From: a virus
Reading direction: 5' to 3' (one strand)
DNA: 62,602 nucleotides
Virus record (IMG/VR): IMGVR_UViG_3300046460_000197
Span: 1-62,602 of that record
Positions 10,297-37,301 of the stretch are shown here, piece after piece. Each line of letters opens with the position of its first letter. Position 1 is the stretch's first letter. The translations under genes and the position numbers were made by a program. Under the pieces are notes generated by a model. The model was not told the origin of the DNA. It did no database searches and saw nothing but the letters and a program-made list of their open reading frames with translations.

Positions 10297-11055
10297 ATGG
10301 CCGTGACGGATCCAGCGCAGAGCAAGAAGCCGCGCTATGAACAGATCGCGGATGAGCTGCGCGCGCGGATCGACGCCGGTGTGTACAGCGAAAGTCGCAA
10401 GCTGCCCAGCGAGAGAGAGCTCTCCGAGGAGTTCGCCACTGCGCGCAACACCGTGCGAGATGCGATCCAGGTGCTTCGCGCCGACGACCTCGTCGAGTCG
10501 CGCGGTGGGTCGGGCGTGTATCTGCGGTCGTTCCGGCGCGTCAAGCGTGACGCCGTCGAGCGGCTCTCCAGGAAGCACTGGGGGGTTGGGCGCGCAATCT
10601 GGGACAAGGATTTGGGGGGGCGCGATCGGAGCGAAGAGGTCGTCGTTGAGACGGTCACGCCGCCCGACGAGATCGCAGGCACCTTGGGTATTCGAGGACG
10701 GCAGGCCCTGATGCGCCGGAGGGTCTTCCAGTCCGAGGGTCGCAAGATCCAGCAGGCAACGTCCTGGTACCCAGCTGACCTTGTAGCGGGTACCGCGATC
10801 GCGGAGCAGGACACAGGGCCGGGTGGCTCGTATGCGCGGCTCGACGAGATCGGGCGCGGGCCGGCGCACTACCGGGAGGAAATCAAGATCCGCCTCCCCC
10901 TCTCGGCTGAAGCGAGGACGCTCGGCATCACGATGAGCACGCCGGTGGTGTTCATCATGCGCACCGCATTCGATGCCGACGATCAGCCCGTCGAAGTCAA
11001 CGAGATGATGCTGGACTCTGACAGCTACACGTTGATCTACACCTTCCCCTCTTGA
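10297..11055 (+). CDS. GntR-family (HutC subfamily, UTRA domain) transcriptional repressor, Kor-like
   Basis: 252 aa. N-terminal wHTH PRYEQIADELRARIDAGVYSESRKLPSERELSEEFATARNTVRDAIQVL, followed by a UTRA-sized C-terminal domain. Confidence 0.85.
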   Translation: MAVTDPAQSKKPRYEQIADELRARIDAGVYSESRKLPSERELSEEFATARNTVRDAIQVLRADDLVESRGGSGVYLRSFRRVKRDAVERLSRKHWGVGRAIWDKDLGGRDRSEEVVVETVTPPDEIAGTLGIRGRQALMRRRVFQSEGRKIQQATSWYPADLVAGTAIAEQDTGPGGSYARLDEIGRGPAHYREEIKIRLPLSAEARTLGITMSTPVVFIMRTAFDADDQPVEVNEMMLDSDSYTLIYTFPS

Positions 11056-13426: not shown

Positions 13427-14689
13427 GTGACCGCCACATCCGTCGAGCAGGTCAACGGAACCGCCGTGACCCGGCCTGAGCGCGGCTTCGACGCCGTCGC
13501 CCTCGCCGAGGCGGATGCGATCCGCGCCCGCACCGCCGCCGAGACGGAAGCCGCCCTCATGAAGGCGCAGGCCGAAGCCGACGCGATCCGCGCCAAGGCG
13601 GAGGCCGACGCTGAGAAGCAGCGGCTCGCGAACCGGCGCCAGGCCATCACCCTGGAGGAGAAGGAAGCCGACCACGCCGAGAAGATGGCCGAGTCCGATC
13701 GCCGCCGCAAGGAATCCGAGCGGCTCGCCCGCCAGGCCGAGGAGCAGGCCGCAGCCGAGCAGGAGGCGGCCGGCCAGCAGGCGGCAGAGATGGCGGACGC
13801 CGACGAGAAGTGGCGCAAGTACGCGATCCGCTTCGCCATCGTCTGCGGCATCGTGTCCCTGCCCGTGCAGATGTCGTTCTTCTGGAACAGGGAAGCGCCC
13901 TGGATGGCCGCCGCCCCGATCATGCTGGAAGGCGCCGCCTGGGTCGTCCACCGTGGCGCCCGCGCGGCAGCCGTCGGCAACCGGCCGGTGTGGCACTACC
14001 GCACGATCGTCTGGCTGCTCGCCTTCATCGCCGCCGCGGTGAACCTCTACCACGGGCTTCACTCCTTCGACCCGGGCACCGCCCTGTCGACGGCGTTCGC
14101 ATCCATCGCCGGCCCGGGCGTCTGGGACCTTCACGAGCACGGCCGGCTCCGCAGGCGCGGCGACACGCCTACCCGCCGCGAGCGCAAGGCCGCCGAGAAG
14201 GAAGCGAAGCGGATCGCCGCCGAGCAGGCCGAGCGCGAGCTGCGCGAATCCGAGAGGCAGGCATACCGCGAGAAGGCCGCACGCGAGGCGGCGGCACAGC
14301 TCGCCGCCGACCGCGAGGCGAAATTCCCCAAGGTGTGGGAGCACGCGCTGAAGCTTGCCGCGGACCTCGGCGAGACGACTGTCACCCAGGCCATCTGGAA
14401 GCAGGCGAAGCTCGACGTCGAGGGCGCACTCCCCGGCGAATCGGCTGACGTCATCCGCATGCGCAACGCCGCCGAGGCGAGGGTCGAAGCCGCCCGCGAG
14501 AAGCGCTCGGTGAACGGATCAACGGCGCAGGTCGCTTCGCAAGTGCTCGGCCCGAAGAAGCCCCGCGTGTACAACCCGCCCGCACGCCGCGGGAAGCGCA
14601 CCAAGGGCGACGTCCAGTACTCGGCCGGAGCGCGCCGCCAGGCCTCTCTCGCGGCCCGCAACGCCACTGCCAAGAAGGACCCGTCATGA
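13427..14689 (+). CDS. DUF2637/SpdB-like integral membrane protein with charged coiled-coil flanks
   Basis: 420 aa. AE/K/R-rich coiled-coil N- and C-terminal regions flank about 4 TM helices (YAIRFAIVCGIVSLPVQMSFFW, TIVWLLAFIAAAVNLYHGL...). Lies immediately upstream of, and overlaps, the TraB-like gene, as in Streptomyces plasmids and AICEs. Confidence 0.6.
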   Translation: MTATSVEQVNGTAVTRPERGFDAVALAEADAIRARTAAETEAALMKAQAEADAIRAKAEADAEKQRLANRRQAITLEEKEADHAEKMAESDRRRKESERLARQAEEQAAAEQEAAGQQAAEMADADEKWRKYAIRFAIVCGIVSLPVQMSFFWNREAPWMAAAPIMLEGAAWVVHRGARAAAVGNRPVWHYRTIVWLLAFIAAAVNLYHGLHSFDPGTALSTAFASIAGPGVWDLHEHGRLRRRGDTPTRRERKAAEKEAKRIAAEQAERELRESERQAYREKAAREAAAQLAADREAKFPKVWEHALKLAADLGETTVTQAIWKQAKLDVEGALPGESADVIRMRNAAEARVEAAREKRSVNGSTAQVASQVLGPKKPRVYNPPARRGKRTKGDVQYSAGARRQASLAARNATAKKDPS

Positions 14690-16749
14690 GCCTCGACCAG
14701 CACCCGGAGTTCCCCGCCGGATGGGACCTCGACAAGGTGATCCCCGGCGAGCTGCATGTGCCCGACGACCTGTCCGGCGAGGACATCGCGCCCGGAATCG
14801 TCGTCCCCTACCGGCCTCGCCCGGCCGTCCTGTCGAAGGCGGGCTCGGCCGGCATGGTGGTCGCCGCGACAACCGGCCGCGCCTGCGGGCTCACCGCCCG
14901 CTGGTTCTTCACCGGCGCCGCCTCGGTCGGTTTCCTCGGCTGGCGGTACGTCCGCGCCCACGACCTCCAGGAGACTCTCGGCGGCATGTCGAAGTCCTCC
15001 GACTGGAACAAGGTCGACATCGTCCGCAAGAAGCGGTGGAAGACCCTCGGCTGGACGGCCGGTATCACCGCCGGGCTCAACCTGGCTGGCTGGTGGGCGC
15101 TCGTGAAGTTCGGCGGCATGACCGCCACCGACTGGTCCTGGAAGATCCCGCCCGCCCTCACCGCAGCCGCCCTCTTCGCCGCGGTCACCTGGTACGGCCG
15201 CTACCGCACGAACAGCCCCGGCATCGCCCCCCAGATGCTCGTCGCCGACCAGGACAACCCGGGCGAAGACGAGCCGTTCCCGATCTCCTGGGTCACCGGC
15301 GGCGACCAGGCCGCCGACTGCCTCGGCCGCGCCCTGTACGCCGAGGGCGTCGATTACCGGGCGGTGACCACGCTGACCCGCCACGACTGGGGATGGGAGC
15401 TGGAGGTTGTCCTCAAGGGCGCGACCCCCGGCGGCGTCCAGGCCAAGGCCGACCAGCTGGAATCCCGTCTCGGCTTGCCTGACGGCGGCTTCATGATCGA
15501 GCCGGACTCGCGGGACAAGTCCCGGATCACCGTCCGCCTCGTGCAGTCCAACCCGTTCGCCGACATGCCCCGCCCTGCTGTTCACGCCCCCCGCTCGCTG
15601 TCGGTCCATGACACCGTCGCCATGGGGCGGGCCATGGACGGCAGCGTCTTCGAGCTCACTCTCGACGGATTCTGTGCGCTCATCATCGGCGCGATGGGGG
15701 CGGGCAAGACACTCGGTGCCCTTCGGACGATCAACGAGGCGCTCACCGCCTGCCGGGACGCTGTCGTCTGGGACCTCGACCCCATCAAGGGAGGTCTCGG
15801 CGAGTTCGGCGACCTGATGGAGCGCCGCGCCCGCACCCCCGAGGAGTGCGAGGAGGCTCTCGACGACGCCCTCGCCTACGTGACGGCGCGCGGCAAGCTG
15901 CTGCCCAGCCTCCACATGGGGGACCGCTGGCACGCCACCCCGGAGCACCCCAACCTCTACATCAACATCGACGAGTTCATCCAGCTCAGCCCCCGTGGCA
16001 AGGAAACCGCGATCAAGATCCTGCGCACGGGCCGCCAGTACGGCATCTACCTGCTCCTGGCCGGCCAGGAGGCCACCGCCGACGCCCTCGGCGACGCCAT
16101 CGCCATGATCGTCGCGTACCGGATCCTCATGTCCTGCCGCTTCGAGGACATCAAAATCGCCTTCGGCCCCGGCGCGGGAGCGCAGGGCTGGCGCCCCGAC
16201 CGGATGAAGCCCGCCGTCGGGCCCGTCGCCAACGACGCAGGACAGGCCATGATCATGGGCGGCCCCTTCAACCGGGCCATCCGCCACCAGTTCAACAGCT
16301 ACACCCGAGAACAGATCACCGCCTGCCTCGACGACCGCATCATGGCCGGCGTCAACCGCATGGACGGCGACACCATCCTCAAGGCGGGAGCCACCCTCAC
16401 CACGGCCAGCCAGCGCGACAACCTGGCCGAACGGCTCGACGCCATCACCCACGAGGACGCCCCCCTCATCGCCGTCCTGCTGCGCACCTTCGAGGCACAG
16501 GACCGAGGCTTCCTGCCGACCGGCGAGGTGCTGCTGCCCACCCTGGCCGCCGCAGGAGTCGCCGGCGTCGACGCCACCGCGCTCGCCAACCGGATCCGCA
16601 AGCACGCCCCGGGCGCCAAGGCGGACCGCGCCGACTGCACCGAAGGCAAGTACCTGCGCGGATGGAACCGCAGCGAGGTCGAAAGGGCCGCCGCCGGCCT
16701 GCTGGACCCGGCACAGACCCGGCAGAACCCTGGCACAAGGGCGGCGTAG
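14686..16749 (+). CDS. traB: FtsK/SpoIIIE-family dsDNA translocase, TraB-like (Streptomyces conjugation type)
   Basis: 687 aa. N-terminal TM helices, Walker A ALIIGAMGAGKTLG, Walker B LYINIDEFIQL, and a C-terminal segment with wHTH-like character. Confidence 0.85.
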   Translation: MSLDQHPEFPAGWDLDKVIPGELHVPDDLSGEDIAPGIVVPYRPRPAVLSKAGSAGMVVAATTGRACGLTARWFFTGAASVGFLGWRYVRAHDLQETLGGMSKSSDWNKVDIVRKKRWKTLGWTAGITAGLNLAGWWALVKFGGMTATDWSWKIPPALTAAALFAAVTWYGRYRTNSPGIAPQMLVADQDNPGEDEPFPISWVTGGDQAADCLGRALYAEGVDYRAVTTLTRHDWGWELEVVLKGATPGGVQAKADQLESRLGLPDGGFMIEPDSRDKSRITVRLVQSNPFADMPRPAVHAPRSLSVHDTVAMGRAMDGSVFELTLDGFCALIIGAMGAGKTLGALRTINEALTACRDAVVWDLDPIKGGLGEFGDLMERRARTPEECEEALDDALAYVTARGKLLPSLHMGDRWHATPEHPNLYINIDEFIQLSPRGKETAIKILRTGRQYGIYLLLAGQEATADALGDAIAMIVAYRILMSCRFEDIKIAFGPGAGAQGWRPDRMKPAVGPVANDAGQAMIMGGPFNRAIRHQFNSYTREQITACLDDRIMAGVNRMDGDTILKAGATLTTASQRDNLAERLDAITHEDAPLIAVLLRTFEAQDRGFLPTGEVLLPTLAAAGVAGVDATALANRIRKHAPGAKADRADCTEGKYLRGWNRSEVERAAAGLLDPAQTRQNPGTRAA

Positions 16750-16768
16750 CCCCGGCAGACCCCCGGCG
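16705..16768. repeat. clt-like cluster of GACCCGG-type direct repeats at and after the traB 3' end
   Basis: GACCCGGCA at 16705 and 16716 (11-bp phasing), then GAACCCTGGCA 16725, CCCCGGCA 16750 and GACCCCCGGCG 16758. The cluster spans the stop codon at 16747-16749. Confidence 0.4.
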
Positions 16769-16876
16769 GAGATTCACGGCATCGGCGCAGGTCGCCGGGT
16801 GTGCGCCGGGGTCCCGCCGCCCCCGCGCCACCCGATTGATCCCTAAATGTGAAGTCAGCCGACCGAGGAGTCCGAC

Positions 16877-17644
16877 ATGCCGCCCGCGAAGCGCGCCCCG
16901 GCCCGCCGCACCACCCGCAAGCCGTCCGCGCGCAGCCACCCCGCCCGCCGCGTCAAGATCCCCAAGAAGGCGGGCCCGCTCCACGCCCGCCTCGGCGCGA
17001 AACTCGCACTCGTCGCCGTCTCCCACCTCGACACCCACACCGACCTCCTCCAGTCCCGCAAGGACGCCGCCATCCTCCGCGCCACCCACAAAGGCTGCCC
17101 CACCTGCAAAGGCAACGGGCAGATCTTCACCAAGGGCAAGGACGGCTCCTTCACCGGCTCCAAGCCCTGCCCGGCCAAGCCGACCAAGCAGCGCACATCC
17201 CGCTGGGAGGTGTACAAGGCGTCCCGGTTCGGCGCCGACAAGAACACCGGCCTCGTCGGCTGGGCCTGCCCGTGCGGGAAGAAGGAAAAGCCCCGCTACC
17301 GCGACGCCCGGCTCGCCACCAAGGCGCTACGGGCCCATGAGAAGAAGAAGCATGGCGGTCAGACCGTCGGGGGCGCCTGGTACGCGCAGACCGCCGACGC
17401 CGCCCAGACGGTCCCCACCCCACAGCAGCAGCCCGCCGTGTCGAAGGTCGTCACCGACTCCGGCATGACGGACGAGCAGTGGATCAAGCAGAACAAGAGC
17501 CTCCACCCCGGCAAAGCCATCGCCCAAGGCCTGTGCTGGATGTGCGCCGGCGAGCGCAAGCTCCACGGCGCCTTCGGCGGCCAGCAGATCGTCGCCATCT
17601 GCCCCGAATGCAAGGGCAACGGCAAAGCCCCCACCGCAGCCTGA
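16877..17644 (+). CDS. Basic protein with DnaJ-type CxxCxGxG zinc-finger motifs (255 aa)
   Basis: CPTCKGNG, CPCGKK, CWMCAGERK and CPECKGNG. Lys/Arg-rich N-terminus. Confidence 0.65.
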   Translation: MPPAKRAPARRTTRKPSARSHPARRVKIPKKAGPLHARLGAKLALVAVSHLDTHTDLLQSRKDAAILRATHKGCPTCKGNGQIFTKGKDGSFTGSKPCPAKPTKQRTSRWEVYKASRFGADKNTGLVGWACPCGKKEKPRYRDARLATKALRAHEKKKHGGQTVGGAWYAQTADAAQTVPTPQQQPAVSKVVTDSGMTDEQWIKQNKSLHPGKAIAQGLCWMCAGERKLHGAFGGQQIVAICPECKGNGKAPTAA

Positions 17645-18189: not shown

Positions 18190-18993
18190 ATGGCACACGG
18201 AAACTACTTCACACCGACGACGGTGAAGGATGCCCGTTGCGGCGTCCGCCGCAGCGTTGCCCACCTCATGACGCTCGTCGACACTGAAGAACCGGCGTTC
18301 CCCAGCATCGCCACCGCCCTCCAGGACATGGCCAACGCCGGCGTCGAACTGACCGAGGACATGGTCTCGGCCGCCGTGAAGATGGGGCGCCAGAAGCACG
18401 CGGACGAGCAGGCGAAGCGTCACAACGCCCCGGAGCGGCGGTCCATCGTCTACTACATCCGACGCGGACAGCTCATCAAAATCGGGACAACGACGAATCC
18501 AGCCTCTCGCTTCAAGTCGCTCATGCCGGACGAAATACTCGCCTTCGAGCCTGGCCACGTGGATGTGGAACGTGCGCGGCATCAGCAGTTCCATGCCAGT
18601 CGAGTGGCGCGGAAGAGCGAGTATTTCCACTGGACTGATGAGCTGGCTACGCACGTCGCTGTCTTGCGCAAGCGGCACGGTGAGCCCGATCCTGCGTGGC
18701 CCACCATGGCCACCCTTGGGACCGGATACATCCGCACCAAGGTCAAGCCCGAGCTTCCTGACCCCACCAGCGGCGAGACGGCCACAGCTACCGACGGCGC
18801 AAAGTTGCTCGGGATGAACCGGTCCACCGTGCAAGGCTGGGTGCACCGCGGGCTGATTACGGCTGCGGGCCGGGATGAGAAGGGTCGGCCCCTTTACTAC
18901 GTCGATCACATGCGCTTCATCATCGAGCGGAACCGCTCCTGGCAGAACCACAAGAAGCATCGGTCGAACGACGCCACGTCCGTACCTTCTTGA
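18190..18993 (+). CDS. T5orf172/MUG113 (GIY-YIG-like) domain protein with C-terminal HTH
   Basis: 267 aa. VYYIRRGQLIKIGTTTNPASRFKSL...ERARHQQFHASRVARKSEYFHW, plus the HTH GAKLLGMNRSTVQGWVHRGLI. Confidence 0.7.
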   Translation: MAHGNYFTPTTVKDARCGVRRSVAHLMTLVDTEEPAFPSIATALQDMANAGVELTEDMVSAAVKMGRQKHADEQAKRHNAPERRSIVYYIRRGQLIKIGTTTNPASRFKSLMPDEILAFEPGHVDVERARHQQFHASRVARKSEYFHWTDELATHVAVLRKRHGEPDPAWPTMATLGTGYIRTKVKPELPDPTSGETATATDGAKLLGMNRSTVQGWVHRGLITAAGRDEKGRPLYYVDHMRFIIERNRSWQNHKKHRSNDATSVPS

Positions 18994-22333: not shown

Positions 22334-22813
22334 GTGATCGACATGCCGAAAGGTGGAGCACGCACCAGGTCCGGGCCGGCGCCCGATCCGACCGCGCTGA
22401 GGCGCGAGCGAGATGCCGGCGAGTGGACGATTCTGCCTGCTGAGGGCCGTGAAGGCGCAACGCCTGCCTGGCCGTTCGAAAATCAGAGCGTTCGTGAGGC
22501 AGTGCTGTGGGTCAAGATGTGGGCCAAGCCGCAGGCTCTGATGTGGGAGCGCTACGGCCAGGAGCTGGAGGTGGCACTGTACGTCCGCCGTCTCGCTGAG
22601 GCAGAGAAACCGGAGTCGTCAGTCGTCCTGTCGACGCTTGTGCGGCAGATGGCGGACTCGCTGGGACTGACGACTCCAGGAATGCGTGGCAACCGGTGGC
22701 GCATCGACCGGATCAGTAAGGAAGACGAGACTTCGGTGGGGCCGAGTGGGCCTGTCGTTGAAGCGACCTCGGCACGCGCCAGGCTGAGGGCGGTGCCTGG
22801 TGGTAGCGGCTGA
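22334..22813 (+). CDS. Terminase small subunit (P27-like)
   Basis: 159 aa (alternative ATG at 22343). GGARTRSGPAPDPTALRRERD...WPFENQSVREAVLW...LGLTTPGMRGNRWRI. Position is upstream of TerL. Confidence 0.75.
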   Translation: MIDMPKGGARTRSGPAPDPTALRRERDAGEWTILPAEGREGATPAWPFENQSVREAVLWVKMWAKPQALMWERYGQELEVALYVRRLAEAEKPESSVVLSTLVRQMADSLGLTTPGMRGNRWRIDRISKEDETSVGPSGPVVEATSARARLRAVPGGSG

Positions 22814-24428
22814 CGACGGGACCTGGCCCCTCGACTTCCCTACCCTGTACGTCGTCCCGGACTGGATTGCCAGGCACTGCAAGTTGCAGTCGGTTGGCGG
22901 CCTGGACAGTACGCCGCAGCCGTTCGAGATGTACGACTGGCAGCTGCGAATCACGGCGAATCTGTACCGGGTGAAGCCGACCGCCGAGCTCGGCCAACTG
23001 TCGACCGCGTTTCACTATCGGCGCGCTCAGGCAGTGGCCCCGCAGAAGTCCGGCAAGGGCCCGTGGGCCGCCTCCGTGGTTGCCGCCGAGGCGGTCGGCC
23101 CGGTGCTGTTCAACGGCTGGGCGCAGGGCGGGGAGCGGTATCGCTGCTCGGATCACGGCTGCGGCTGCGGTTGGGTGTACTGGTACGAGCCGGGGGAGCC
23201 GATGGGCCGCCCTTGGAATCAGCCGCTGATCCAGATCACGGCGACGTCCGAGGATCAGACGGACAACACGTACCGGCCGCTCCAGGCGATGATCCGCAAC
23301 GGGCCGCTCGCCGAGGTGATGAAGGTCGGCGAGCAGTTCATCCGGCTACCGAACGACGGCCGTATCGACGTCGTCACTTCGAGTGCTCAGAGCCGTCTGG
23401 GCAACCCGATCACGTTCGCGTCTCAGGACGAGAGCGGGATCTGGACCGAGCAGAACGGCATGACCAAGGTCGCCACGACGCAACGCCGTGGCCTGGCGGG
23501 CATGTCGGGGCGCTCGCTGGAGCAGACGAACGCCTGGGACCCCACGGAGAACACGGTCGCCCAGAAGACCGCGGAGACGAAGGCCCCGGACGTCTACCGG
23601 TTCCACCGGCTGCCGCCCAAGAGTCTGTCGTACACGAACAAGGCCGAGAGGCGCCGTATCCACGCGGCCGTGTACTTGGGCAGCTCGCACATCGACCTCG
23701 ACGCCATCGAGGGCGAGGCTTTCGAGCTGATGGAGAAGGAGCCGGCGGAAGCGGAGCGCTTCTACGGCAACCGAATCACGGCGGGCATGGGCACCTGGCT
23801 GCAGCAGGACCGATGGGACGCCCGCATCGCCGTGGAGGAAGTGCCGGACGGCACGGCGCTCGCGCTGGGCTTCGACGGATCCGACGTGGACGACTGGACC
23901 GGAATTCGCGCCGAGACGCTGGACGGCTACCAGTTCACTCCGACCTACGGGCCCGACAACAGGCCCTGCGTGTGGGATCCGGAGGACTGGGAGGGTCAGG
24001 TGCCGCGGCTTGAGGTCGATGCCGCGGTGGATGAACTGATGGGCCGCTTCAACGTGGTCCGCATGTACGGCGATCCGCCGTACTGGACCAGCGAGATGGC
24101 GGCCTGGCAGGCCCGGTACGGCGAGAAGCGCGTCACGGAATGGCAGACGTACCGGGTCGCGCAGATGCATGCGGCCTGCGAGCAGCTGCTGACGGACGTC
24201 ACGAAGAAGGACACGACATTCCGGCACGACGGCTGCGAGACGACGTCCATCCATGTTCGGAACGCACGCAAGGCGGCCCGCCCGGCGAAGCGCTACGTGC
24301 TGCGGAAGGCGACGCACGTTCAGAAGATCGACCTTGCCGTCGTCTCGGTGCTTGCCCACGAGGCGGCCTGCGATGCGATTGCCGCCGGTGAAGCCCGCAC
24401 CAAGAAGCGCCGAGCGCGCGGATTCTGA
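22800..24428 (+). CDS. Terminase large subunit
   Basis: 542 aa. Walker A-like AVAPQKSGKGPWAA and a C-terminal nuclease-sized domain. Overlaps the terS stop. Confidence 0.9.
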   Translation: MVAADDGTWPLDFPTLYVVPDWIARHCKLQSVGGLDSTPQPFEMYDWQLRITANLYRVKPTAELGQLSTAFHYRRAQAVAPQKSGKGPWAASVVAAEAVGPVLFNGWAQGGERYRCSDHGCGCGWVYWYEPGEPMGRPWNQPLIQITATSEDQTDNTYRPLQAMIRNGPLAEVMKVGEQFIRLPNDGRIDVVTSSAQSRLGNPITFASQDESGIWTEQNGMTKVATTQRRGLAGMSGRSLEQTNAWDPTENTVAQKTAETKAPDVYRFHRLPPKSLSYTNKAERRRIHAAVYLGSSHIDLDAIEGEAFELMEKEPAEAERFYGNRITAGMGTWLQQDRWDARIAVEEVPDGTALALGFDGSDVDDWTGIRAETLDGYQFTPTYGPDNRPCVWDPEDWEGQVPRLEVDAAVDELMGRFNVVRMYGDPPYWTSEMAAWQARYGEKRVTEWQTYRVAQMHAACEQLLTDVTKKDTTFRHDGCETTSIHVRNARKAARPAKRYVLRKATHVQKIDLAVVSVLAHEAACDAIAAGEARTKKRRARGF

Positions 24429-24439
24429 GAGGGGGCCGG

Positions 24440-25825
24440 ATGCCTCAGCCTGTTGCTGTCCAGTCCCCGGAATGGTGGCGGGACCGTCTGTACGACGCGC
24501 TGTGCAAGCGGTCGGAGGGGACGAAGGTCTTCGACGACTACTACGAGTGCGAGCACCCGTTGCCGCATCTGCACGAGAAGGCGCGGGCCCCGTTTCGGCG
24601 GCTTCTGAAGATGTCGCGGGCCAACTACATGGAGCTCGTGGTCGATGCGTTGGTGGGTCGGCTGGAGGTTGCCGGCTTCCAGTCGGACGTCGACGGAGAT
24701 TCAGATCAGGCGGCCTGGGCGCTGTGGCAGGACAACAACCTGGACGGCGGCAGCTCGCTGGCGTTTCTCGAAGCGGCGATCCGCGGCAACGCCTACATGC
24801 TGGTGTCTCCGCCCTCTGGCGGCCGGGGCTTCCGCATTACTCCGGAGCATCCGACGCAGGTCATCACGGAGGGAAAGCCGGGGGAACCGGGCGAAATGGC
24901 CGCGGCACTGAAGCTGTGGCTGGACGACTGGACGGGCAAGCTCTGCTGCACCGTGTACCTCCCCGAGAGGATCTACAAGTTCGAGGCACCCGAACCCAAG
25001 TACGGGGAGAGGACGCAGAAGCCGCAGTGGGCGCGCCGCGAGGTGGCCGGCGAAGAGTGGGGCGGCAAGAACGTCCTGGGCGAGGTACCGTTCGGCGAGC
25101 TGGCGAACCGGCCGCGGATGCTGAAGCCAGGGGCCAGCGAGTTGCGCTCGGTGACGGGGATCCAGGACCGGATCAACAAGACGATCGCCGACCGGATGAT
25201 GACCCAGGAAGGCGCGGCGTTCCCGGCGAAGTGGGCGACGGGCTTGGAGATCCCGCTCGACGAGAACGGTCAGGAGATCGAGCCGTTCGACGTCGCGGTG
25301 AACAAGATCCTGATCGCGGAAGAGGCCGGCGCCAAGTTCGGCCAGTTCGCGGCCGCGGACCTGACCGGCTACCTGAAGGCCAAGGAGGCGGACGTCCACG
25401 ACATCGCCGCGATCACGTCGACACCGCCGCACTACCTGCTCGGCAGCATGGTGAATCTGTCGGCGGAGGCGCTGAAAGCAGCCGAGGCCGGCCTCATCCA
25501 CAAGATTTATCAGCGGCGCCGCTTCCTCGAGGAGGGCCTGGAGCGGACGATGCGGCTCGCCGGGTTCGCCTCGTCGCAGGCCCGCATCGTATGGAAGTCC
25601 CCGGAGTGGCGCACCGAGGGCGAACTCGTCGACGCCCTGGTCAAGATGGGCACGCTCGGCGTACCCCGCGAGGTGCTGTGGGAGCGCTGGGGTGCCACGC
25701 CGCAGGAGATCGAACGTTGGCGACAGCTGAACGAGGACAGCCTCGACCGGGCTCTGGCCGGCGACCTGGCCGCAGAGTACGGGCCGAAGCCGACCGAGGC
25801 GGCCGCCGAGCCTGTTGGGGAGTAG
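24440..25825 (+). CDS. Portal protein
   Basis: 461 aa; position and size fit. ...ITSTPPHYLLGSMVNLSAEALKAAEAGLIHK... is typical of SPP1-type portals. Confidence 0.85.
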   Translation: MPQPVAVQSPEWWRDRLYDALCKRSEGTKVFDDYYECEHPLPHLHEKARAPFRRLLKMSRANYMELVVDALVGRLEVAGFQSDVDGDSDQAAWALWQDNNLDGGSSLAFLEAAIRGNAYMLVSPPSGGRGFRITPEHPTQVITEGKPGEPGEMAAALKLWLDDWTGKLCCTVYLPERIYKFEAPEPKYGERTQKPQWARREVAGEEWGGKNVLGEVPFGELANRPRMLKPGASELRSVTGIQDRINKTIADRMMTQEGAAFPAKWATGLEIPLDENGQEIEPFDVAVNKILIAEEAGAKFGQFAAADLTGYLKAKEADVHDIAAITSTPPHYLLGSMVNLSAEALKAAEAGLIHKIYQRRRFLEEGLERTMRLAGFASSQARIVWKSPEWRTEGELVDALVKMGTLGVPREVLWERWGATPQEIERWRQLNEDSLDRALAGDLAAEYGPKPTEAAAEPVGE

Positions 25826-27529: not shown

Positions 27530-28492
27530 GTGGCCTACAACAACCTGACGAGCCGCACCGATGCTGCGGCTCTCATTCCCGAAGAGGTCTCTAAGGAGAT
27601 GCTCGGCAAGGCCGTGGAGGACTCTGCGGCGCTCAAGATGTTCAAGCGGATCCCGGTGGCGCGCGGCCAGCTGCGCCTGCCGATCCTGTCCGCCCTGCCG
27701 GTCGCCTACTGGGTGAGCGGCGACACCGGCCTGAAGCAGACCACCGAGGTCAACTGGGCGAACAAGTTCCTGAACGTCGAGGAGATGGCGACGATCGTCC
27801 CGTTCCCCGACAACGTCCTCGCGGACACGGATGCGGACCTCTGGGACGAGGCGGAGCCGCTGGTGCGGGAGGCGTTCGGGCGCCTTCTGGACTCGACGAT
27901 CTTCTTCGGCACGAACGCGCCGAGCTCGTTCCCGACGAACATCCTGTCTGCGGCGACCGCTGCGGGGAACAGCGTCAACGAGGGCTCCACTGCGGCGCAG
28001 GGCGGCTTCTTCGGTGACGTCGACAAGGTGTACGAGAAGGTCGAGGCTGACGGCTTCGAGGTCAACGGCTTCGTCGCGGCGACGTCGGCGAAATCCAAGC
28101 TCCGCATGGCGCGGGACACGCAGGGCCGCAAGCTTGACGAACAGCGCGCCGGTGGCGACCTGAGGACCCTGGACGGCTACCCGGTCGAGTACGCCATGAA
28201 GGGTCTCTTCCCCCTCGCGGGCGGGGTCGGTGTCGACGGCGTGCGTCTCTTCGCCGGCGACTGGGACGAGTTCGTCATCGGCGTCCGTCAGGACATCAGC
28301 ATGAAGATCCTCGACCAGGCCGTCATCCAGGACAACACGGGCGCGATCATCTACAATCTGGCCCAACAGGACATGACGGCGGTCCGCCTGACCTTCCGTG
28401 TCGGCTGGCAGGTGAGCAACCGCATCAACAACGAGCAGCCCACCGAGGGCAGCCGTTACCCGGTCGGCGTTCTCAAGACCGTGGGCGCTTGA
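27530..28492 (+). CDS. Major capsid protein (HK97 fold family)
   Basis: 320 aa, GTG after AAGGAAAGG. ...LNVEEMATIVPFPDNVLADTDADLWDEAEPLVREAFGRLLDSTIFFG... Confidence 0.85.
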   Translation: MAYNNLTSRTDAAALIPEEVSKEMLGKAVEDSAALKMFKRIPVARGQLRLPILSALPVAYWVSGDTGLKQTTEVNWANKFLNVEEMATIVPFPDNVLADTDADLWDEAEPLVREAFGRLLDSTIFFGTNAPSSFPTNILSAATAAGNSVNEGSTAAQGGFFGDVDKVYEKVEADGFEVNGFVAATSAKSKLRMARDTQGRKLDEQRAGGDLRTLDGYPVEYAMKGLFPLAGGVGVDGVRLFAGDWDEFVIGVRQDISMKILDQAVIQDNTGAIIYNLAQQDMTAVRLTFRVGWQVSNRINNEQPTEGSRYPVGVLKTVGA

Positions 28493-33311: not shown

Positions 33312-36300
33312 GTGGCCACCCGATCCGTGAACGTCCGCCTGGTCGCGGACGTCAGCAGCTACACCCGCTCGATGCGGACGGCCGCCCGCAGTACCTCCCA
33401 GCTGGCCAATGCGGGCGCGATCGTGGGTACCGCGCTCGTCGCAGGGTTCGCAGTCGCGGCAGCCAGCGCTGCCAAATTCGACAAGGAGTTGTCCAATGTC
33501 CGCGCGGTGACTGGCGCCTCCGCGAAGGACATGCAGAAGCTGCGCGCTGCCGCACTGGAGGCCGGCAAGACGACGTCCTTCACCGCGACCGAAGCGGCCC
33601 GCGCTGAGGCCGAGCTGGCGCGCGCCGGCATCAGCACCGCCGACATCGTGGGCGGCGCACTGAAGGGTGCGCTGGCACTGGCGGCAGCAGGGCAGGTCGA
33701 CCTCACAGAGGCGGCCGTCGTCAGCGCCCAGGCCATGAATACGTTCGGCTTGGCGGGCAAAGACGTCACACACGTGGCGGACCTGCTCGCCGCTGGCGCG
33801 AACAAGTCCGCGGCCGACGTACACGGCCTGGCCATGTCGATGCGCATGGGCGGCCTGCTCGCCCACCAGACCGGCCTGTCCATCGAGGACACCGTGGGCG
33901 TTCTGGCGGCTTTCGCCGACCGCGCACTGATCGGCTCGGATGCCGGTACCTCGCTCAAGGTGATGTTGCAGCGCCTGGTGCCTCAGTCGAAGGAAGCCAA
34001 GGCGGCAATGAGCGCGATCGGCTTCAGCGCCTACGACAGCCAGGGCAAGTTCATCGGCCTGGAGAAGATGGCCGGGAACCTGAAGACCTCGTTCTCGAAA
34101 CTCACGCCCGAGGCCCGCAACTCCGCCATGGCGACGATCTTCGGGGCGGACGCCGTGCGTTCGGCCACGATCCTCTACGAACTGGGCTCCGAGGGCATCG
34201 CCAAGTACGTCAACTCCGTCAACGACCAGGGCGCCGCGCAGCGCATGGCCGCAATTCAGACGGACAACCTGATCGGCGACTTCGAGCGCCTGCGAGGCGC
34301 TCTCGAGGTCGCCCTGATCGAGGGAGGGTCCGCGGCCAATGGGTCCCTGCGCACGATGACCCAGTGGATCACGCGGCTGGTCAACGCCTACAGCAGCCTC
34401 AGCCCCGAACTCCAGCACGCGGTCACACTGTTCGCCGGATTCGGCGGCGCCGCCACCCTCGCCGCGGCGGGTGTCCTGCTCCTGCTGCCCCGGATCGCCG
34501 CGACCCGGGCCGCCCTGGTCGCCATGGGCCTCACGGCCGCCCGCACGCGGATCATGCTGGGCACGCTCGGCAAGGTGGGCGCCGTGGTCGCCGGCCTCGA
34601 GCTGATCTCCTACGCCTCCCGGAAGGTTCAGGAGCAGTTCGCGGACTCCCCGCCGTCCGTGTCGAAGCTGGCGAGCAGCTTCGTGGACCTCAGCAACAAC
34701 GGCAAGGTCGGCGGGGAGGCACTGAAGAGGCTCGGCAGTGATCTCGGCGGGTTCGGTGAGGCCGTCAAGCGGGTCGCCCATCCCGACTGGCAGGCCCGCA
34801 CGACAGACGTGGTCAACTCCCTGACGCTCGGCATCACCGAGGGCCTCGGCGAGACACAGATCCCACTCGAAGAGGCCCGCGACAAAATCAAGTCCGTCGA
34901 CGAGGCGCTCGGTCAGCTCGCCCAGTCCGGGAACGCCCAGATCGCCGCCGACGCCTTCAACCAACTCGCCGGCGCAGCCGCGGCCGACGGTACGAGCAAG
35001 GAGAAACTCCTCTCGCTGCTGCCGCAGTACACGGATGCCCTGGCCCAGGTGGACGTCCAGAGCAAGACGTCGGCCGTCTCTCAGGAGGCCCTAGCCGAGC
35101 AGCTCGGCATAACCGCTGACGAGCTTCAGGACCAGCGCACCGAGGCCGAGAAGCTGGTCGATGCCCTCAACGCCCTGAACGGCGTGAACATCAGCTCGGC
35201 CGAGAAGGAAATCGGCTTCCGCCAGTCCCTCGCCGACCTGACAGAAGCCGTCAAGGACAACGGTCGCTCACTGGACATCACCTCCGACAAGGGCCGCAAG
35301 GTGAAGGGCGCGTTCCTGGAGGCCGCGCAGGCCGCCATGGATCACGCCCAGGCGGTGGCCGAGCAGAAGAACAGCCAGCAGGCCGGACAGGCCGTTCTCG
35401 AGAAGGACATCAGCCTGCTGCGCGAGCAGATGTCGGCCGCCGGCTTCTCGGCGGCTGCGATCGACCAGTTGGTCGGGTCGTACCTCCAGCTGCCCGTTGC
35501 AGTCACAACGGACGTGAAGGCCGAGACGGCCTCCGCCATCAGCAGCCTGGAGGGCGTCCAGAAGCAGATCAAGGGCACCAAAGGCAAAACCGTCACGGTC
35601 GACGCGCTCACCGCGTCGGCCCGCACGAACCTCGAGGCCCTCGGCTTCAAGATCAAGTCCACGAAGGGCAAGAAGGTCAGCATCACGGTGCCGACCGGCA
35701 GCCAGCAGTCCGCCGTGAACGCTCTGGCCGCCGCCATCGCAGCCCTGCGCGACAAGGCCGTGACCATCACCACCTCCTACGTCATCAAGGGCAGCAAGAC
35801 CGTCCCGAGCGGCACCTACCTCGGCTCCACCGCCGGCCGCAGTGCCGACGGCAACCTCTACGGGCCCGCCCAGCGGTTCGCCGTCGGCGGCATGCGGGAG
35901 CAGCACGTCGCGCAGATCGCCCAGCCCACACTCCGCATCTGGTCGGAGCCGGAGACCGGCGGCGAGGGCTACATCCCCATGTCGCCCGCCAAGCGGATGC
36001 GTTCCACGCAGATCCTCGGCGAGATCGCCGGCCGTTTCGGCTACCGGCTGGAGAAGTACGCCACGGGCGGCATGTCCGGCTTCACCTACGCGCCGACCGG
36101 GGCCCCGGTACTCGGCGGCCCGTCTGACGCCAAGCAGCGCTACGACGACCTGATCGGCCGGCTGAAGGACGCATGGAAGGAGTATCAGGAGGCGATTGCC
36201 GAGCGGAACAAGGTTCTCAAGGACAAGAAGTCCACGAAGGCCGAGAAGTCCGCCGCACAGAAGGCGGTCGCGAAGCAGTTCGCTGAGGTCAAGGCCCTTG

Positions 36301-37301
36301 ATGCTGCTCTTGGGTTGAAGGCGGGGGCGCCTGCGCCGAAGGGCTTCAGCCTGGCCGCCTACCAGAAGCAGCTAGGCAACTCGCTGAAGGCGACGGTGAC
36401 GTGGCGCACCAACCTGTCAAAGATCGCCAAGCGGGGCGGCGAAGATGTTCGCGTCATGCTGGAATCGATGGGCGAGGACGGCGCCTCCCTCGTCAGCGCC
36501 CTTGCCGGCGCAAGTGACAAGCAGTTCAAAGACATCACCAGCAAGCTGATGCAGACCGGGGAGATCGCCAAAGCGACCTTGGCAGACTTCACTAGGCAAC
36601 TCGGTGCCAGCACCACGGAGAGCAAGGCCTTCGCGGCGGATCTTCAGAAACTGGCCGCATCAGGCTTTGGCGATCTCGCTCAAGCGCTTGCCGCGCAGGG
36701 CGACTCGGCGGCCGTGGCGCTCGCCCACGAAGCTGCCGGGAACGCAAAGTCGGCGGCCGCGGCGAACAAGGCCGTCGGCGCTGCCGAGGGCGCACTGTCC
36801 GGCGAAGACCTGACGAACGCTCTGACCCTGCTGTCCACCCTGCGGGGCGGCACCGGGAAGGGCTTCGCCGACCTCATCGCGGCAGGCCTGGATGTGGCCA
36901 CCATCCGCGCCTTGGTTCCGAAGATGACCGCCCAGATCAAGGCCCTGCCTGCTGCCAACCGGGACACCTTCGTGCGGCAGTGGGTGCAGCAAGGCGGCAA
37001 GGCGATGGCGGCCGGCGGCATCCTCAACCGGCCGACGATGGTCCTAGGCGGCGAGGCTGGAGACGTCGAGTCGTGGATCCCGTGGAACAACTCGTCTCGC
37101 TCGCGGGGCCTGCTCGCCAAGACGGCCGCGGCCATGGGCTACCAGCTGGTCCCTGCTGGCAGGTACGGGGGCGGCGGGGCCAGCAGCAGCGGGTCAGCGC
37201 CCCACGTGTCCCGCACGACCAACATCACGCTGAACGGGGCCAAGCAGAGCGGAGTCGAACAGGTCCACGACATCGCCCGAGTCATGAACTTCGTCGGCTG
37301 A
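33312..37301 (+). CDS. Tape measure protein
   Basis: 1329 aa, Ala/Gly/Leu-rich with helical repeats; position after the chaperone pair. Confidence 0.9.
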   Translation: MATRSVNVRLVADVSSYTRSMRTAARSTSQLANAGAIVGTALVAGFAVAAASAAKFDKELSNVRAVTGASAKDMQKLRAAALEAGKTTSFTATEAARAEAELARAGISTADIVGGALKGALALAAAGQVDLTEAAVVSAQAMNTFGLAGKDVTHVADLLAAGANKSAADVHGLAMSMRMGGLLAHQTGLSIEDTVGVLAAFADRALIGSDAGTSLKVMLQRLVPQSKEAKAAMSAIGFSAYDSQGKFIGLEKMAGNLKTSFSKLTPEARNSAMATIFGADAVRSATILYELGSEGIAKYVNSVNDQGAAQRMAAIQTDNLIGDFERLRGALEVALIEGGSAANGSLRTMTQWITRLVNAYSSLSPELQHAVTLFAGFGGAATLAAAGVLLLLPRIAATRAALVAMGLTAARTRIMLGTLGKVGAVVAGLELISYASRKVQEQFADSPPSVSKLASSFVDLSNNGKVGGEALKRLGSDLGGFGEAVKRVAHPDWQARTTDVVNSLTLGITEGLGETQIPLEEARDKIKSVDEALGQLAQSGNAQIAADAFNQLAGAAAADGTSKEKLLSLLPQYTDALAQVDVQSKTSAVSQEALAEQLGITADELQDQRTEAEKLVDALNALNGVNISSAEKEIGFRQSLADLTEAVKDNGRSLDITSDKGRKVKGAFLEAAQAAMDHAQAVAEQKNSQQAGQAVLEKDISLLREQMSAAGFSAAAIDQLVGSYLQLPVAVTTDVKAETASAISSLEGVQKQIKGTKGKTVTVDALTASARTNLEALGFKIKSTKGKKVSITVPTGSQQSAVNALAAAIAALRDKAVTITTSYVIKGSKTVPSGTYLGSTAGRSADGNLYGPAQRFAVGGMREQHVAQIAQPTLRIWSEPETGGEGYIPMSPAKRMRSTQILGEIAGRFGYRLEKYATGGMSGFTYAPTGAPVLGGPSDAKQRYDDLIGRLKDAWKEYQEAIAERNKVLKDKKSTKAEKSAAQKAVAKQFAEVKALDAALGLKAGAPAPKGFSLAAYQKQLGNSLKATVTWRTNLSKIAKRGGEDVRVMLESMGEDGASLVSALAGASDKQFKDITSKLMQTGEIAKATLADFTRQLGASTTESKAFAADLQKLAASGFGDLAQALAAQGDSAAVALAHEAAGNAKSAAAANKAVGAAEGALSGEDLTNALTLLSTLRGGTGKGFADLIAAGLDVATIRALVPKMTAQIKALPAANRDTFVRQWVQQGGKAMAAGGILNRPTMVLGGEAGDVESWIPWNNSSRSRGLLAKTAAAMGYQLVPAGRYGGGGASSSGSAPHVSRTTNITLNGAKQSGVEQVHDIARVMNFVG

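What the first reader, a model, noticed from the sequence alone, without database searches (positions are those of the whole stretch)
16705..16768. clt-like cluster of GACCCGG-type direct repeats spanning the traB stop codon
Seen: GACCCGGCA occurs twice, 11 bp apart (16705 and 16716). It is followed by the degenerate copies GAACCCTGGCA, CCCCGGCA and GACCCCCGGCG, all within 65 bp around the traB stop (16747-16749). Established knowledge (from memory): the TraB C-terminal wHTH recognises short 8-bp GC-rich direct repeats (TRS; GACCCGGA in pSVH1) clustered in the clt locus, which often lies at or just after the traB 3' end. Inference: this is the cis-acting transfer locus of the block. The 17-bp iterons at the window ends also contain GACCGGAC and are an alternative TraB target.
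Basis: partly seen in the sequence, partly recalled or inferred. Interest (0 to 1): 0.6.

Follow-up and report, generated by a model that had tools for sequence, protein, structure and literature searches.

The report
Phage DNA pump's docking repeats
The short repeats at the end of this Streptomyces phage's membrane DNA-pump gene are one arm of a larger, conserved array that changes together with the pump's own DNA-binding domain. It is most likely the site where the pump docks on the phage genome, as the clt site does on Streptomyces conjugative plasmids.

Summary
The window is a complete 62.6-kb temperate Streptomyces phage. Its 687-aa "TraB" has membrane helices, an FtsK-type motor and a C-terminal winged helix.

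The reported copies are the left arm of a roughly 120-bp array:
- 16705-16770: six 11-bp units, core (G)ACCCGGC.
- 16771-16792: a centre containing CGCAGGT.
- 16793-16825: inverted copies, CGCCGGG.

This is the strongest period-11 repetition in the genome (0 of 200 simulated genomes reach it).

Relatives give the decisive evidence. About 50 phage, prophage and metagenome loci keep the same architecture after the same gene, but with at least nine different repeat words. All copies in both arms change together. The word class follows the pump's winged-helix domain (AUC 0.98). It does not follow the equally adjacent downstream gene (0.56) or the upstream gene (0.51). pFP1-type plasmids carry the same layout after their Tra gene.

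Best reading (0.7): a clt-like docking array read by the translocase's own wHTH. Binding and transfer are untested. The window-end iterons are unrelated palindromes. Earlier notes of this scan describe similar phage-borne pump-plus-array modules in at least 13 other genomes. Verdict: new variant of a known kind, interest 0.62.

The parts
14686..16749 (+). FtsK/TraB-like membrane DNA translocase gene (687 aa): N-terminal membrane helices, FtsK-type motor, C-terminal winged helix
   Evidence: The sequence carries Walker A (GAMGAGKT) and Walker B (INIDEF) motifs. phrog_12531 matches at E 1.4e-91. NCBIfam plasmid_TraB scores 37 bits, below its cut-off. The AF2 model matches the FtsK motor structures 6T8B and 2IUS at E 6.5e-12.
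16459..16668 (+). [quoted passage not shown]
   Evidence: AF2 on a 20-sequence alignment gives pLDDT about 90 over the domain, with DSSP order H-S-H-H-S-S. Foldseek hits are weak (E >= 0.45) but are mostly MarR, ORC, Cdt1 and PadR winged helices.
16705..16770 (+). Left arm: six 11-bp units in strict register, core (G)ACCCGGC. Units 1, 2, 3, 5 and 6 are recognisable and unit 4 (16738-16748) is degenerate. The arm spans the stop codon at 16747-16749.
   Evidence: 36 of 55 period-11 matches, the genome maximum. The core is invariant and the spacers vary in 13 class-A relatives.
16771..16792 (+). Centre, two unit-lengths long, containing CATCGGCGCAGGT (16780-16792). The CGCAGGT box is conserved across nearly all motif classes and in pFP1-type plasmids.
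16793..16825 (+). Right arm: inverted copies in the same 11-bp register. These are CGCCGGGT at 16793, CGCCGGGGT at 16804 and a degenerate unit at 16815. The window has one 11-bp unit fewer than its relatives.
   Evidence: (inverted repeats I1 and I3).
16835..16855 (+). AT-rich box ATTGATCC-N-ATGTGAAGT, conserved after the right arm in classes A-C. It may be a promoter or an accessory site; its function is unknown.
   Evidence: The sigma-70 consensus scan found no match.
16877..17644 (+). Downstream gene: a 255-aa basic protein with CxxCxGxG zinc knuckles, RBS GAGGAG at 16865-16870. It is conserved in all motif classes and does not co-vary with the repeat word.
   Evidence: AUC 0.56; shares the HKGCPxCKGxG knuckle with the gene downstream of pFP1 Tra, E 9e-7.
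13427..14689 (+). Upstream gene: a 420-aa membrane protein related to the DUF2637 protein that precedes Tra on pFP1. It overlaps the translocase start.
   Evidence: E 5e-13; AUC 0.51.
10297..11055 (+). GntR/UTRA (HutC-type) repressor at the head of the block. This is the family of TraR, KorA and KorSA, the regulators of Streptomyces transfer genes.
   Evidence: Pfam GntR 2e-18 and UTRA 2.3e-18. The TraR/KorA family assignment is from PMC4447253 and my own knowledge.

Best explanation
The repeats are the left arm of a two-arm array of about 120 bp (16705-16825), with 7-8-bp sites spaced one helical turn (11 bp) apart. The C-terminal winged-helix domain of the adjacent FtsK/TraB-like translocase reads this array. 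It would then be the pump's docking and loading site on the phage genome, the functional equivalent of a plasmid clt.

Inferred mechanism. Several translocase subunits bind the phased sites on one face of the DNA through their wHTH domains. Five or six sites per arm roughly match the six subunits of a ring. The raised local concentration nucleates ring assembly on this DNA rather than on other DNA. The two arms point towards each other across a conserved CGCAGGT centre. The membrane-anchored motor then pumps double-stranded phage DNA across a septum or between hyphae.

What is shown: the array exists, it is conserved, it co-varies with the wHTH domain, and the protein has the stated architecture. 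What is inferred: physical binding, ring loading, and any role in transfer or spread.
For: 1. Architecture. The protein has membrane helices, an FtsK-type motor and a wHTH. This is the domain order reported for TraB (PMC4447253, PMC3583192).

2. Local statistics. The array gives the top period-11 peak of the genome, and 0 of 200 null genomes reach it.

3. Conservation. In 23 of 36 dereplicated relatives the strongest period-11 peak of the whole 6-10-kb locus sits at the 3' end of the homologous gene. This includes all 19 loci of classes A, B, C, E and F. The chance expectation is about 4% per locus. In class A the cores are invariant while the spacers vary.

4. Concerted change. At least nine words occupy the same layout: ACCCGGC, CCCGTCT, CCCGTCC, CCCGGTC, CCCGCCG, TGCTCG, TGCTCA, TGCTA and CCCTCG. 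In each lineage all 9-13 copies in both arms carry that lineage's word.

5. Co-variation in mosaic genes. Pairwise identity predicts 'same word class' with these AUC values: wHTH 0.976, ATPase 0.885, N-terminus 0.652, downstream gene 0.558, upstream gene 0.512. For example, L038 has an ATPase 85% identical to the window's but a class-C wHTH and the class-C word. Class-D loci have downstream genes up to 77% identical to the window's but a non-homologous C-terminal domain and a different word.

6. DNA-level constraint inside the coding tail. The period of 11 is not a multiple of 3. Class-B tails use rare A/T-ending codons to spell their word: 14 of 48 codons against 241 of 2352 in the rest of the gene.

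7. Plasmid link. pFP1, pSLUN2 and a third plasmid have the same layout directly after their Tra/FtsK gene. It consists of a CGCAGGTCAGCGG box, CTCTAC repeats and inverted GTAGAG repeats. The flanking genes are homologous, and the class-D C-terminus is homologous to that of pFP1 Tra.

8. Precedent. The pWTY27 clt comprises 16 bp inside traA plus 159 bp downstream, with direct and inverted repeats footprinted by TraA (PMC3583192).
Against: - No binding or transfer data exist for this protein or site.
- The protein scores far below the curated TraB model (37 bits against 800). Its wHTH has no sequence match in plasmids or in the PDB, and its fold matches are not significant.
- The wHTH coding region and the array are physically contiguous, so part of their co-inheritance could be linkage. 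The equally close downstream gene does not co-vary, however.
- I assigned the motif classes by eye.
- Sites spread over 66 bp on one helical face cannot all be touched by a single ring, so the loading geometry is speculative.
- The conserved CGCAGGT box and the AT-rich box are not explained by this model.
- Within this window alone, significance is only about 0.01, and the right arm is partly degenerate.
Confidence: 0.7

Rival explanations
1. The array is an operator or promoter-control array. It would regulate transcription of the downstream 255-aa gene and the genes after it, either through the translocase wHTH acting as an autoregulator or through another repressor. It would have no role in DNA loading.
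For: The array sits directly upstream of the downstream gene's RBS. In classes A-C a conserved AT-rich box follows the right arm. Arrays of 11-bp phased sites flanking a promoter are known from parC of plasmid R1 (own knowledge). This reading and the docking function could also coexist.
Against: No sigma-70-like promoter is detectable. Class D and the pFP1-type plasmids lack the AT-rich box but keep the array. The word follows the translocase wHTH, not any small regulator nearby. Nine to thirteen sites is far more than a typical operator needs. Half of the array lies inside the upstream coding region.
Confidence: 0.12
2. The array is a centromere-like partition site or a replication-origin iteron array, used by a partition adaptor or an initiator rather than by the translocase.
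For: Helically phased short repeats in two arms are typical of type II centromeres and of iteron origins. An AT-rich element lies next to the array.
Against: The phage's initiator-type gene and its own palindromic iterons lie at the window ends, next to the DnaC-like loader. No ParA, ParM or ParR-like gene flanks the array. The word class is predicted by the translocase wHTH and not by the neighbouring genes. The layout is tied to the Tra gene on the pFP1-type plasmids, and the pFP1 replication locus is described as a separate repA plus iterons (PMC3583192).
Confidence: 0.07
3. The repeats have no function. They would be a by-product of replication slippage in GC-rich DNA plus selection on a conserved protein tail (LLDPAxTRQxPG).
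For: The tail peptide is conserved in class A. GC-rich genomes throw up many CCGG-type words. Within-window significance is modest.
Against: Half of the array is non-coding and is equally conserved. The period of 11 is out of frame. Inverted copies match the direct ones. The word changes in all copies at once in each lineage while the layout is kept. Rare codons are used to spell the word. Gain or loss occurs in whole 11-bp units.
Confidence: 0.03
4. The region is an RNA-level element: a terminator or attenuator hairpin formed by the inverted arms in the transcript between the two genes.
For: Imperfect inverted repeats of 30-38 nt span 16731-16833.
Against: The predicted fold is no more stable than shuffled sequence (z = -0.39). 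There is no T-run terminator. Class D has six direct copies before any inverted one. Conservation falls on 7-bp cores at 11-bp spacing rather than on paired columns.
Confidence: 0.03

Closest known systems
clt of Streptomyces plasmid pWTY27, bound by TraA (PMC3583192)
   Same: It is a cis site that begins inside the 3' end of the translocase gene (16 bp) and runs into the downstream non-coding DNA. It contains 7-bp direct repeats plus inverted repeats, and the translocase footprints on the repeats. TraA is a 688-aa protein with two N-terminal membrane helices.
   Different: The words differ (TGACACC and CCCGCCC). No strict 11-bp register or two-arm convergent layout has been described for it. 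It lies on a 14-kb plasmid, not a phage. Binding and cis-requirement were shown experimentally there and not here.
clt/TRS of pSVH1 read by the TraB wHTH (Vogelmann et al. 2011, cited in PMC4447253, PMC4170104, PMC3583192 and PMC12857230)
   Same: Repeated 8-bp words are recognised by helix alpha-3 of a C-terminal wHTH of a hexameric FtsK-like pump. From memory, the pSVH1 word GACCCGGA differs from this window's GACCCGGC at one position.
   Different: There is no detectable sequence homology between this wHTH and plasmid proteins. The primary paper is not held, so neither the word nor the spacing could be checked. The host element here is a tailed phage.
Array after the Tra/FtsK gene of pFP1-type plasmids (pFP1 NC_006912, pSLUN2, NBC_00285 plasmid), seen here
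   Same: The position is the same, directly after the stop codon. The CGCAGGT box, the direct-then-inverted phased repeats and homologous flanking genes are all shared.
   Different: The word is CTCTAC. The box is duplicated in inverted orientation. The replicon is a plasmid without phage structural genes. Whether this array is the pFP1 clt is not known to me. The paper on the pFP1 conjugation locus (Zhang et al. 2008, PMC2423013) is not held.
FtsK gamma domain with KOPS, and SpoIIIE with SRS
   Same: A winged helix at the C-terminus of an FtsK-type motor reads an 8-bp word whose orientation directs loading. Here the two arms converge on a centre, much as KOPS converge on dif.
   Different: KOPS are spread genome-wide with strand polarity. 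Here the word's strand ratio (13:6) equals the background for 7-mers of the same composition (1.85:1), and there is a single cluster.
parC of plasmid R1 with ParR (own knowledge)
   Same: It has two sets of 11-bp phased repeats flanking a central region upstream of an operon.
   Different: No ParM or ParR genes are present here. The repeats follow the translocase wHTH. The arms are inverted rather than all direct.
Streptomyces plasmid-phage pZL12 / phage ZL12 (Zhong et al. 2010, cited in PMC3583192)
   Same: It is a Streptomyces tailed phage genome that also carries a tra locus, a major tra gene plus two adjacent genes, used for conjugal transfer.
   Different: It shares only a 300-bp DNA match to a neighbouring gene. 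pZL12 is a 90-kb plasmid-prophage, whereas this element has integrases. No clt is described for it in the text I could read.

Membership tests
[quoted passage not shown] | Lies on an element that encodes a membrane-anchored FtsK/SpoIIIE-like translocase with a C-terminal wHTH | tested here: met
   The sequence is divergent, scoring 37 bits against an 800-bit cut-off on NCBIfam plasmid_TraB.
[quoted passage not shown] | A cluster of short (5-9 bp) direct repeats, often with inverted repeats, close to or overlapping the tra gene | tested here: met
   Literature descriptions of the pIJ101, pJV1 and pWTY27 clt sites are in PMC3583192.
[quoted passage not shown] | Specific binding by the cognate translocase through its wHTH | not testable with these tools
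   Only indirect evidence is available. The repeat word co-varies with the wHTH domain (AUC 0.976) and not with the neighbouring genes.
[quoted passage not shown] | Required in cis for conjugal transfer or mobilisation of the replicon | not testable with these tools
   This needs mating assays. No data are available.
[quoted passage not shown] | Kil-kor context: a GntR-type repressor and membrane 'spread' genes in the same block | tested here: met
   A GntR/UTRA gene lies at 10297-11055. A DUF2637-like membrane protein is encoded upstream. Small ORFs lie between them.
FtsK-KOPS / SpoIIIE-SRS polar guidance | The word is distributed along the replicon with strand polarity above background | tested here: not met
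   ACCCGGC occurs 13 times on the + strand and 6 on the - strand. The background ratio for 7-mers of the same composition is 1.85. There is only one cluster.
Iteron-type replication origin | Repeats adjacent to, and specific for, the replicon's initiator gene | tested here: not met
   Separate palindromic iterons lie with the replication genes at the window ends. The array follows the translocase wHTH.
Type II (ParMRC-like) centromere | An adjacent partition NTPase and a small adaptor gene | tested here: not met
   No such Pfam hits were found among the ORFs flanking the array. The rest of the genome was not searched exhaustively.

The most novel reading that the evidence does not exclude
A large, recombining family of temperate Streptomyces phages, together with pFP1-type plasmids, shares a pump-plus-docking-array cassette. 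In it the wHTH domain and its 9-13-copy, two-arm, 11-bp-phased array have diversified into at least ten mutually exclusive specificity classes. These classes would act like transfer 'incompatibility' or self-recognition groups, so that each element's pump moves only its own DNA. They would also give the phage a particle-free way to spread double-stranded DNA through or between mycelia. The convergent arms around the invariant CGCAGGT box would load two opposed rings, or mark a processing site, which is a loading geometry not described for any FtsK-family motor.
Probability: 0.3. Interest if true: 0.8.

Novelty: new variant of a known kind. Interest (0 to 1): 0.62.

Why it matters
clt sites have been defined experimentally for only a handful of small plasmids: pIJ101, pJV1, pSVH1 and pWTY27. 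[quoted passage not shown] FtsK-like genes in Streptomyces phages are routinely annotated but have no assigned role (PMC11536984; bioRxiv 10.1101/2024.02.16.580700).

Here comparative sequence alone identifies the probable docking site of a phage-borne pump. It also yields a natural table of at least ten wHTH-and-word pairs, which makes the recognition code of TraB-like motors directly testable by swaps.

If the site works as a clt, these temperate phages can move as naked double-stranded DNA as well as in virions. That would blur the line between phage, plasmid and AICE in an antibiotic-producing genus where conjugation drives large-scale gene flow (PMC11571958).

Tried and rejected
- **KOPS-like polarity.** The strand skew of the word equals the compositional background, so this was rejected.
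- **Hairpin or terminator.** The fold z-score is -0.39 and there is no T-run, so this was rejected.
- **A 13-nt inverted partner of the centre inside the coding 'YLRGW' codons (16652-16664, I7).** It shows no co-variation with the centre in relatives, so it is a coincidence.
- **SpdA palindrome sps (CGTCACGTGACG).** It is absent from the window.
- **CGCAGGTC genome-wide.** There are 13 copies against 6.5 expected, and 4 of 100 shuffles reach 13. This is not compelling.
- **Window-end iterons as an alternative pump target.** They are palindromes with a different word, and nothing supports this idea.
- **Sequence searches on the translocase and its C-terminus.** Pfam gave no hit for the translocase. 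The PDB sequence search and profile search gave nothing. tblastn of the C-terminal domain against plasmids gave nothing.
- **Foldseek of the wHTH.** Only non-significant winged-helix hits were returned.
- **Lytic BE-cluster phages.** They are the best named protein hits, at 37% identity, but have no array after their FtsK-like gene.
- **Literature.** Vogelmann 2011, Zhang 2008 (pFP1/pFP11 conjugation loci) and Zhong 2010 (pZL12) are not held. A full-text search for GACCCGGA returned only unrelated papers.
- **The look-up of sequencing runs.** It was not available, so transcript ends could not be examined.
Full report
**1. What the window is**

The window is the whole record: one contig of 62,602 bp, classed as a virus record. 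It has about 70% G+C and genes with very high GC3. It encodes these phage functions:
- large terminase (22800-24428) and a candidate small terminase;
- portal (24440-25825);
- major head protein (27530-28492);
- tape measure (33312-37301);
- a tyrosine integrase (51070-52332, minus strand) and a second recombinase-like gene;
- a YqaJ exonuclease, a DnaC/IstB-like loader and a C5 methylase.

It is therefore a complete temperate siphovirus-type Streptomyces phage. Between the replication and packaging genes lies a block headed by a GntR/UTRA repressor (10297-11055).

**2. The protein**

The 687-aa product of 14686-16749 has Walker A and Walker B motifs.

Database matches:
- Pfam: no hit.
- PDB sequence search: no hit.
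- NCBIfam plasmid_TraB: 37 bits, far below the 800-bit cut-off.
- PHROGs FtsK/SpoIIIE-like family phrog_12531: E 1.4e-91.

The best named relatives are the FtsK-like proteins of lytic BE-cluster Streptomyces phages, at 37% identity over aa 114-591. The Tra proteins of pFP1-type plasmids follow at 32% over aa 75-580.

An AlphaFold model built from 32 homologues shows these elements:
- long helices at aa 55-176, consistent with a membrane anchor;
- an alpha/beta domain and a RecA-like motor;
- helix 592-605, strand 609-611, helix 612-622, helix 630-640 and a beta hairpin at 647-661.

Foldseek places the motor with the FtsK motor structures 6T8B and 2IUS (E 6.5e-12), then with TcpA and EccC/EssC.

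The C-terminal 125 residues, modelled alone from 20 sequences, have pLDDT about 90 over the domain and the canonical winged-helix order H-S-H-H-S-S. Foldseek hits for this piece are not significant (E >= 0.45), but they are almost all winged-helix proteins: MarR family, ORC/Cdc6/Cdt1, PadR.

So the architecture matches that reported for TraB: membrane anchor, FtsK motor, wHTH (PMC4447253, PMC3583192). By sequence the protein is a distant relative, not a member of the curated TraB family.

**3. The observation**

Laid out in an 11-bp register from 16705, the DNA reads as six consecutive units. Units 1, 2, 3, 5 and 6 carry (G)ACCCGGC-like cores. Unit 4, which holds the last codons, is degenerate. 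The stop codon is at 16747-16749.

After a 22-bp centre (16771-16792, ending in CATCGGCGCAGGT), the same register continues with inverted copies. These are CGCCGGGT at 16793, CGCCGGGGT at 16804 and a degenerate unit at 16815.

Within the genome this is the single best period-11 self-match, 36 of 55 positions against a mean of 15.2 and sd of 3.5. None of 200 third-order Markov genomes reaches it over seven out-of-frame periods. The core hexamer is denser here than anywhere else, and 2 of 200 null genomes match that density. The bare heptamer is not enriched genome-wide.

On the window alone, then, the feature is real, with significance of about 0.01.

**4. Relatives settle it**

The protein has more than 300 homologues at 50-92% identity in Streptomyces genomes and soil metagenomes. 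I fetched 54 loci from genomes, IMG/VR and metagenomes and read the DNA around each stop codon.

The same layout recurs. Forward copies at about 11-bp spacing begin in or just after the last codons. A centre with CGCAGGT follows, and then come inverted copies. The repeated word, however, differs between lineages:

| Class | Word | Loci |
|---|---|---|
| A | ACCCGGC | the window plus about 15 loci |
| B | CCCGTCT | four loci |
| C | CCCGTCC | four loci |
| E | CCCGGTC | two loci |
| F | mix of CCCGCCG and CCCGTCT | one locus |
| D1 | TGCTCG | among the 24 class-D loci |
| D2 | TGCTCA | among the 24 class-D loci |
| D3 | TGCTA | among the 24 class-D loci |
| D4 | CCCTCG | among the 24 class-D loci |

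In each lineage all 9-13 copies, in both arms, carry that lineage's word.

An unbiased test agrees. In 23 of 36 dereplicated loci the strongest period-11 peak of the entire 6-10-kb locus falls at the 3' end of this gene. This includes all 19 loci of classes A, B, C, E and F. The chance expectation is about 4% per locus. Class D has spacings of 10-12 bp and is seen better by word counts.

In an alignment of 13 class-A loci, the CCCGG/CCGGG cores, the centre and a following AT-rich box are invariant while the 3-4-bp spacers vary. The window differs from the others by exactly one missing 11-bp unit in the right arm.

**5. Who reads the array**

The genes are mosaic. For example:
- L038 has an ATPase 85% identical to the window's but a class-C C-terminus (35% identity) and the class-C word.
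- L015 has a 78% identical ATPase, a class-B C-terminus and the class-B word.
- Class-D loci have N-termini 72-84% identical and downstream genes up to 77% identical to the window's. Their ATPase is only 44% identical and their C-terminal domain is not detectably similar to the window's.

Over 50 loci, I asked how well pairwise identity in each segment predicts 'same word class'. For the wHTH segment I used aa 590-668, which excludes the tail encoded by the repeats. The AUC values were:

| Segment | AUC |
|---|---|
| wHTH (aa 590-668) | 0.976 |
| ATPase | 0.885 |
| Middle domain | 0.847 |
| N-terminus | 0.652 |
| Downstream 255-aa gene | 0.558 |
| Upstream 420-aa gene | 0.512 |

The array lies between the wHTH coding region and the downstream gene. 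It follows the former and ignores the latter.

Among closely related class-D domains, the sequence differences fall in the stretch I take, from sequence alone, to be the wing; no class-D structure was modelled. D1 has GDIDGLxNPRGY, D2 has GYLNGExNPRGF, D3 has GECEGExNPRGY and D4 has GAIDGLKNPNGY. These differences accompany changes in the word.

Caveats: I assigned the classes by eye, the loci are phylogenetically related, and the wHTH coding region and the array are contiguous.

**6. The DNA constrains the protein tail, not the reverse**

The repeat period is out of frame. The class-A tail peptide (LLDPAxTRQxPG) is conserved. In class B, however, the tail is spelled with TCT, CGT, CTT, ACT and CTA codons, which are rare at this GC3. 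A/T-ending codons make up 14 of 48 in the last 12 codons, against 241 of 2352 in the rest of the gene.

**7. Link to plasmids**

pFP1 (NC_006912), pSLUN2 and a third 46-kb plasmid have the same layout immediately after their Tra/FtsK gene. It consists of a CGCAGGTCAGCGG box, four or five CTCTAC copies, a palindromic centre, GTAGAG copies and the inverted box.

Further links:
- The flanking genes correspond. The phage's upstream membrane protein matches the pFP1 DUF2637 protein (E 5e-13).
- The downstream proteins share a basic N-terminus and an HKGCPxCKGxG zinc knuckle (E 9e-7).
- The class-D C-terminus is homologous to that of pFP1 Tra (E 9e-6).

pFP1 has no terminase or portal, whereas relatives of classes A, C and D lie in proviruses rated 86-100% complete, with differing structural modules. 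The cassette therefore moves between plasmids and several phage backbones.

A paper whose title says it characterises the conjugation loci of pFP1 and pFP11 exists (Zhang et al. 2008, cited in PMC3583192) but is not held, so I cannot say whether the array lies in the mapped locus. The lytic phage Peebs has no array after its FtsK-like gene.

**8. Comparison with what is known**

Streptomyces clt sites contain direct 8-bp repeats recognised by the cognate TraB through its wHTH (PMC4447253, PMC4170104, PMC12857230). The pWTY27 clt comprises 16 bp inside traA plus 159 bp downstream, with direct and inverted repeats footprinted by TraA. pJV1 has nine 9-bp repeats, and pIJ101 has three 5-bp repeats plus an inverted repeat (PMC3583192). 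TraB specificity has been shown for pJV1, pSVH1 and pIJ101, and no clt is known for pSAM2 (PMC9513070). A Streptomyces plasmid-phage with a tra locus, pZL12, is known (cited in PMC3583192).

The present site fits the clt concept in position, composition and partner protein.

What is different here:
- the host is a tailed temperate phage with integrases;
- the register is a strict 11 bp;
- there are two convergent arms around an invariant CGCAGGT box;
- the breadth of specificity classes is documented.

It is not KOPS-like, because there is no genome-wide polarity. It is not the replication iterons, which are separate palindromes at the window ends.

**9. Verdict**

I put 0.7 on the array being the cognate docking site of the translocase's wHTH. 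That it serves particle-free transfer or spread of the phage DNA is plausible but unshown.

Unexplained: the function of the CGCAGGT box and of the AT-rich box at 16835-16855, and how sites spread over 66 bp would load a ring.

Earlier notes of this scan describe comparable phage-borne pump-plus-array modules in at least 13 other genomes. These are unchecked AI notes and are not evidence, but the phenomenon is evidently recurrent.

Noticed in passing
window 16786-16792; L002-L050 about 40-75 bp after the stop; L055 4419-4433 and 4518-4532: A CGCAGGT(C) box is conserved inside the array in almost all motif classes. It is present, duplicated in inverted orientation, in pFP1-type plasmids and class D. 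It does not change when the repeat word changes, so it may be read by a conserved partner or mark a processing point.
   Followed up: partly
window 16835-16855: An AT-rich box (ATTGATCC..ATGTGAAGT), unusual in 70% GC DNA, is conserved directly after the right arm in classes A-C. It is absent in class D and in the pFP1-type plasmids. No sigma-70-like promoter was called.
   Followed up: partly
window 16798-16804, compared with L007-L041: The window's right arm is exactly one 11-bp unit shorter than in 12 class-A relatives, and its last units are degenerate. The array therefore gains and loses whole units.
   Followed up: yes
window 14686-15255 (aa 1-190), compared with L002, L020 and L022: The translocase gene is itself a recombinant mosaic. 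Its membrane N-terminus is 72-84% identical to class-D loci whose ATPase is only 44% identical and whose C-terminal domain is unrelated.
   Followed up: partly
window 16877-17644: The downstream 255-aa protein has a very basic N-terminus and two CxxCxGxG zinc-knuckle motifs (weak DnaJ-CXXCXGXG and Anti-TRAP Pfam hits). It is conserved after the array in every class and in pFP1.
   Followed up: partly
window 62491-62602 and 3-45: There are five to six palindromic sites of the form GGTCCG-N5-CGGACC at irregular 22-35-bp spacing across the joined ends, next to the replication genes. The word differs from that of the array. They are probably origin iterons.
   Followed up: partly
L006 (Streptomyces albidocamelliae chromosome): This is a truncated homologue (only aa 341-680 match) without a recognisable array after it. 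It is probably a decayed prophage copy.
   Followed up: no
L056 (Streptomyces phage Peebs, 74337-76151 of the record): The FtsK-like gene of this lytic BE-cluster phage sits among tRNA genes and overlaps the next ORF, with no repeat array. The phage FtsK-like proteins are therefore not one functional group.
   Followed up: partly
window 18190-18993: This 267-aa protein combines a T5orf172/MUG113 (GIY-YIG-like) domain with a MerR-type HTH. It gives weak PADLOC hits (mad1, PDC-S57).
   Followed up: no
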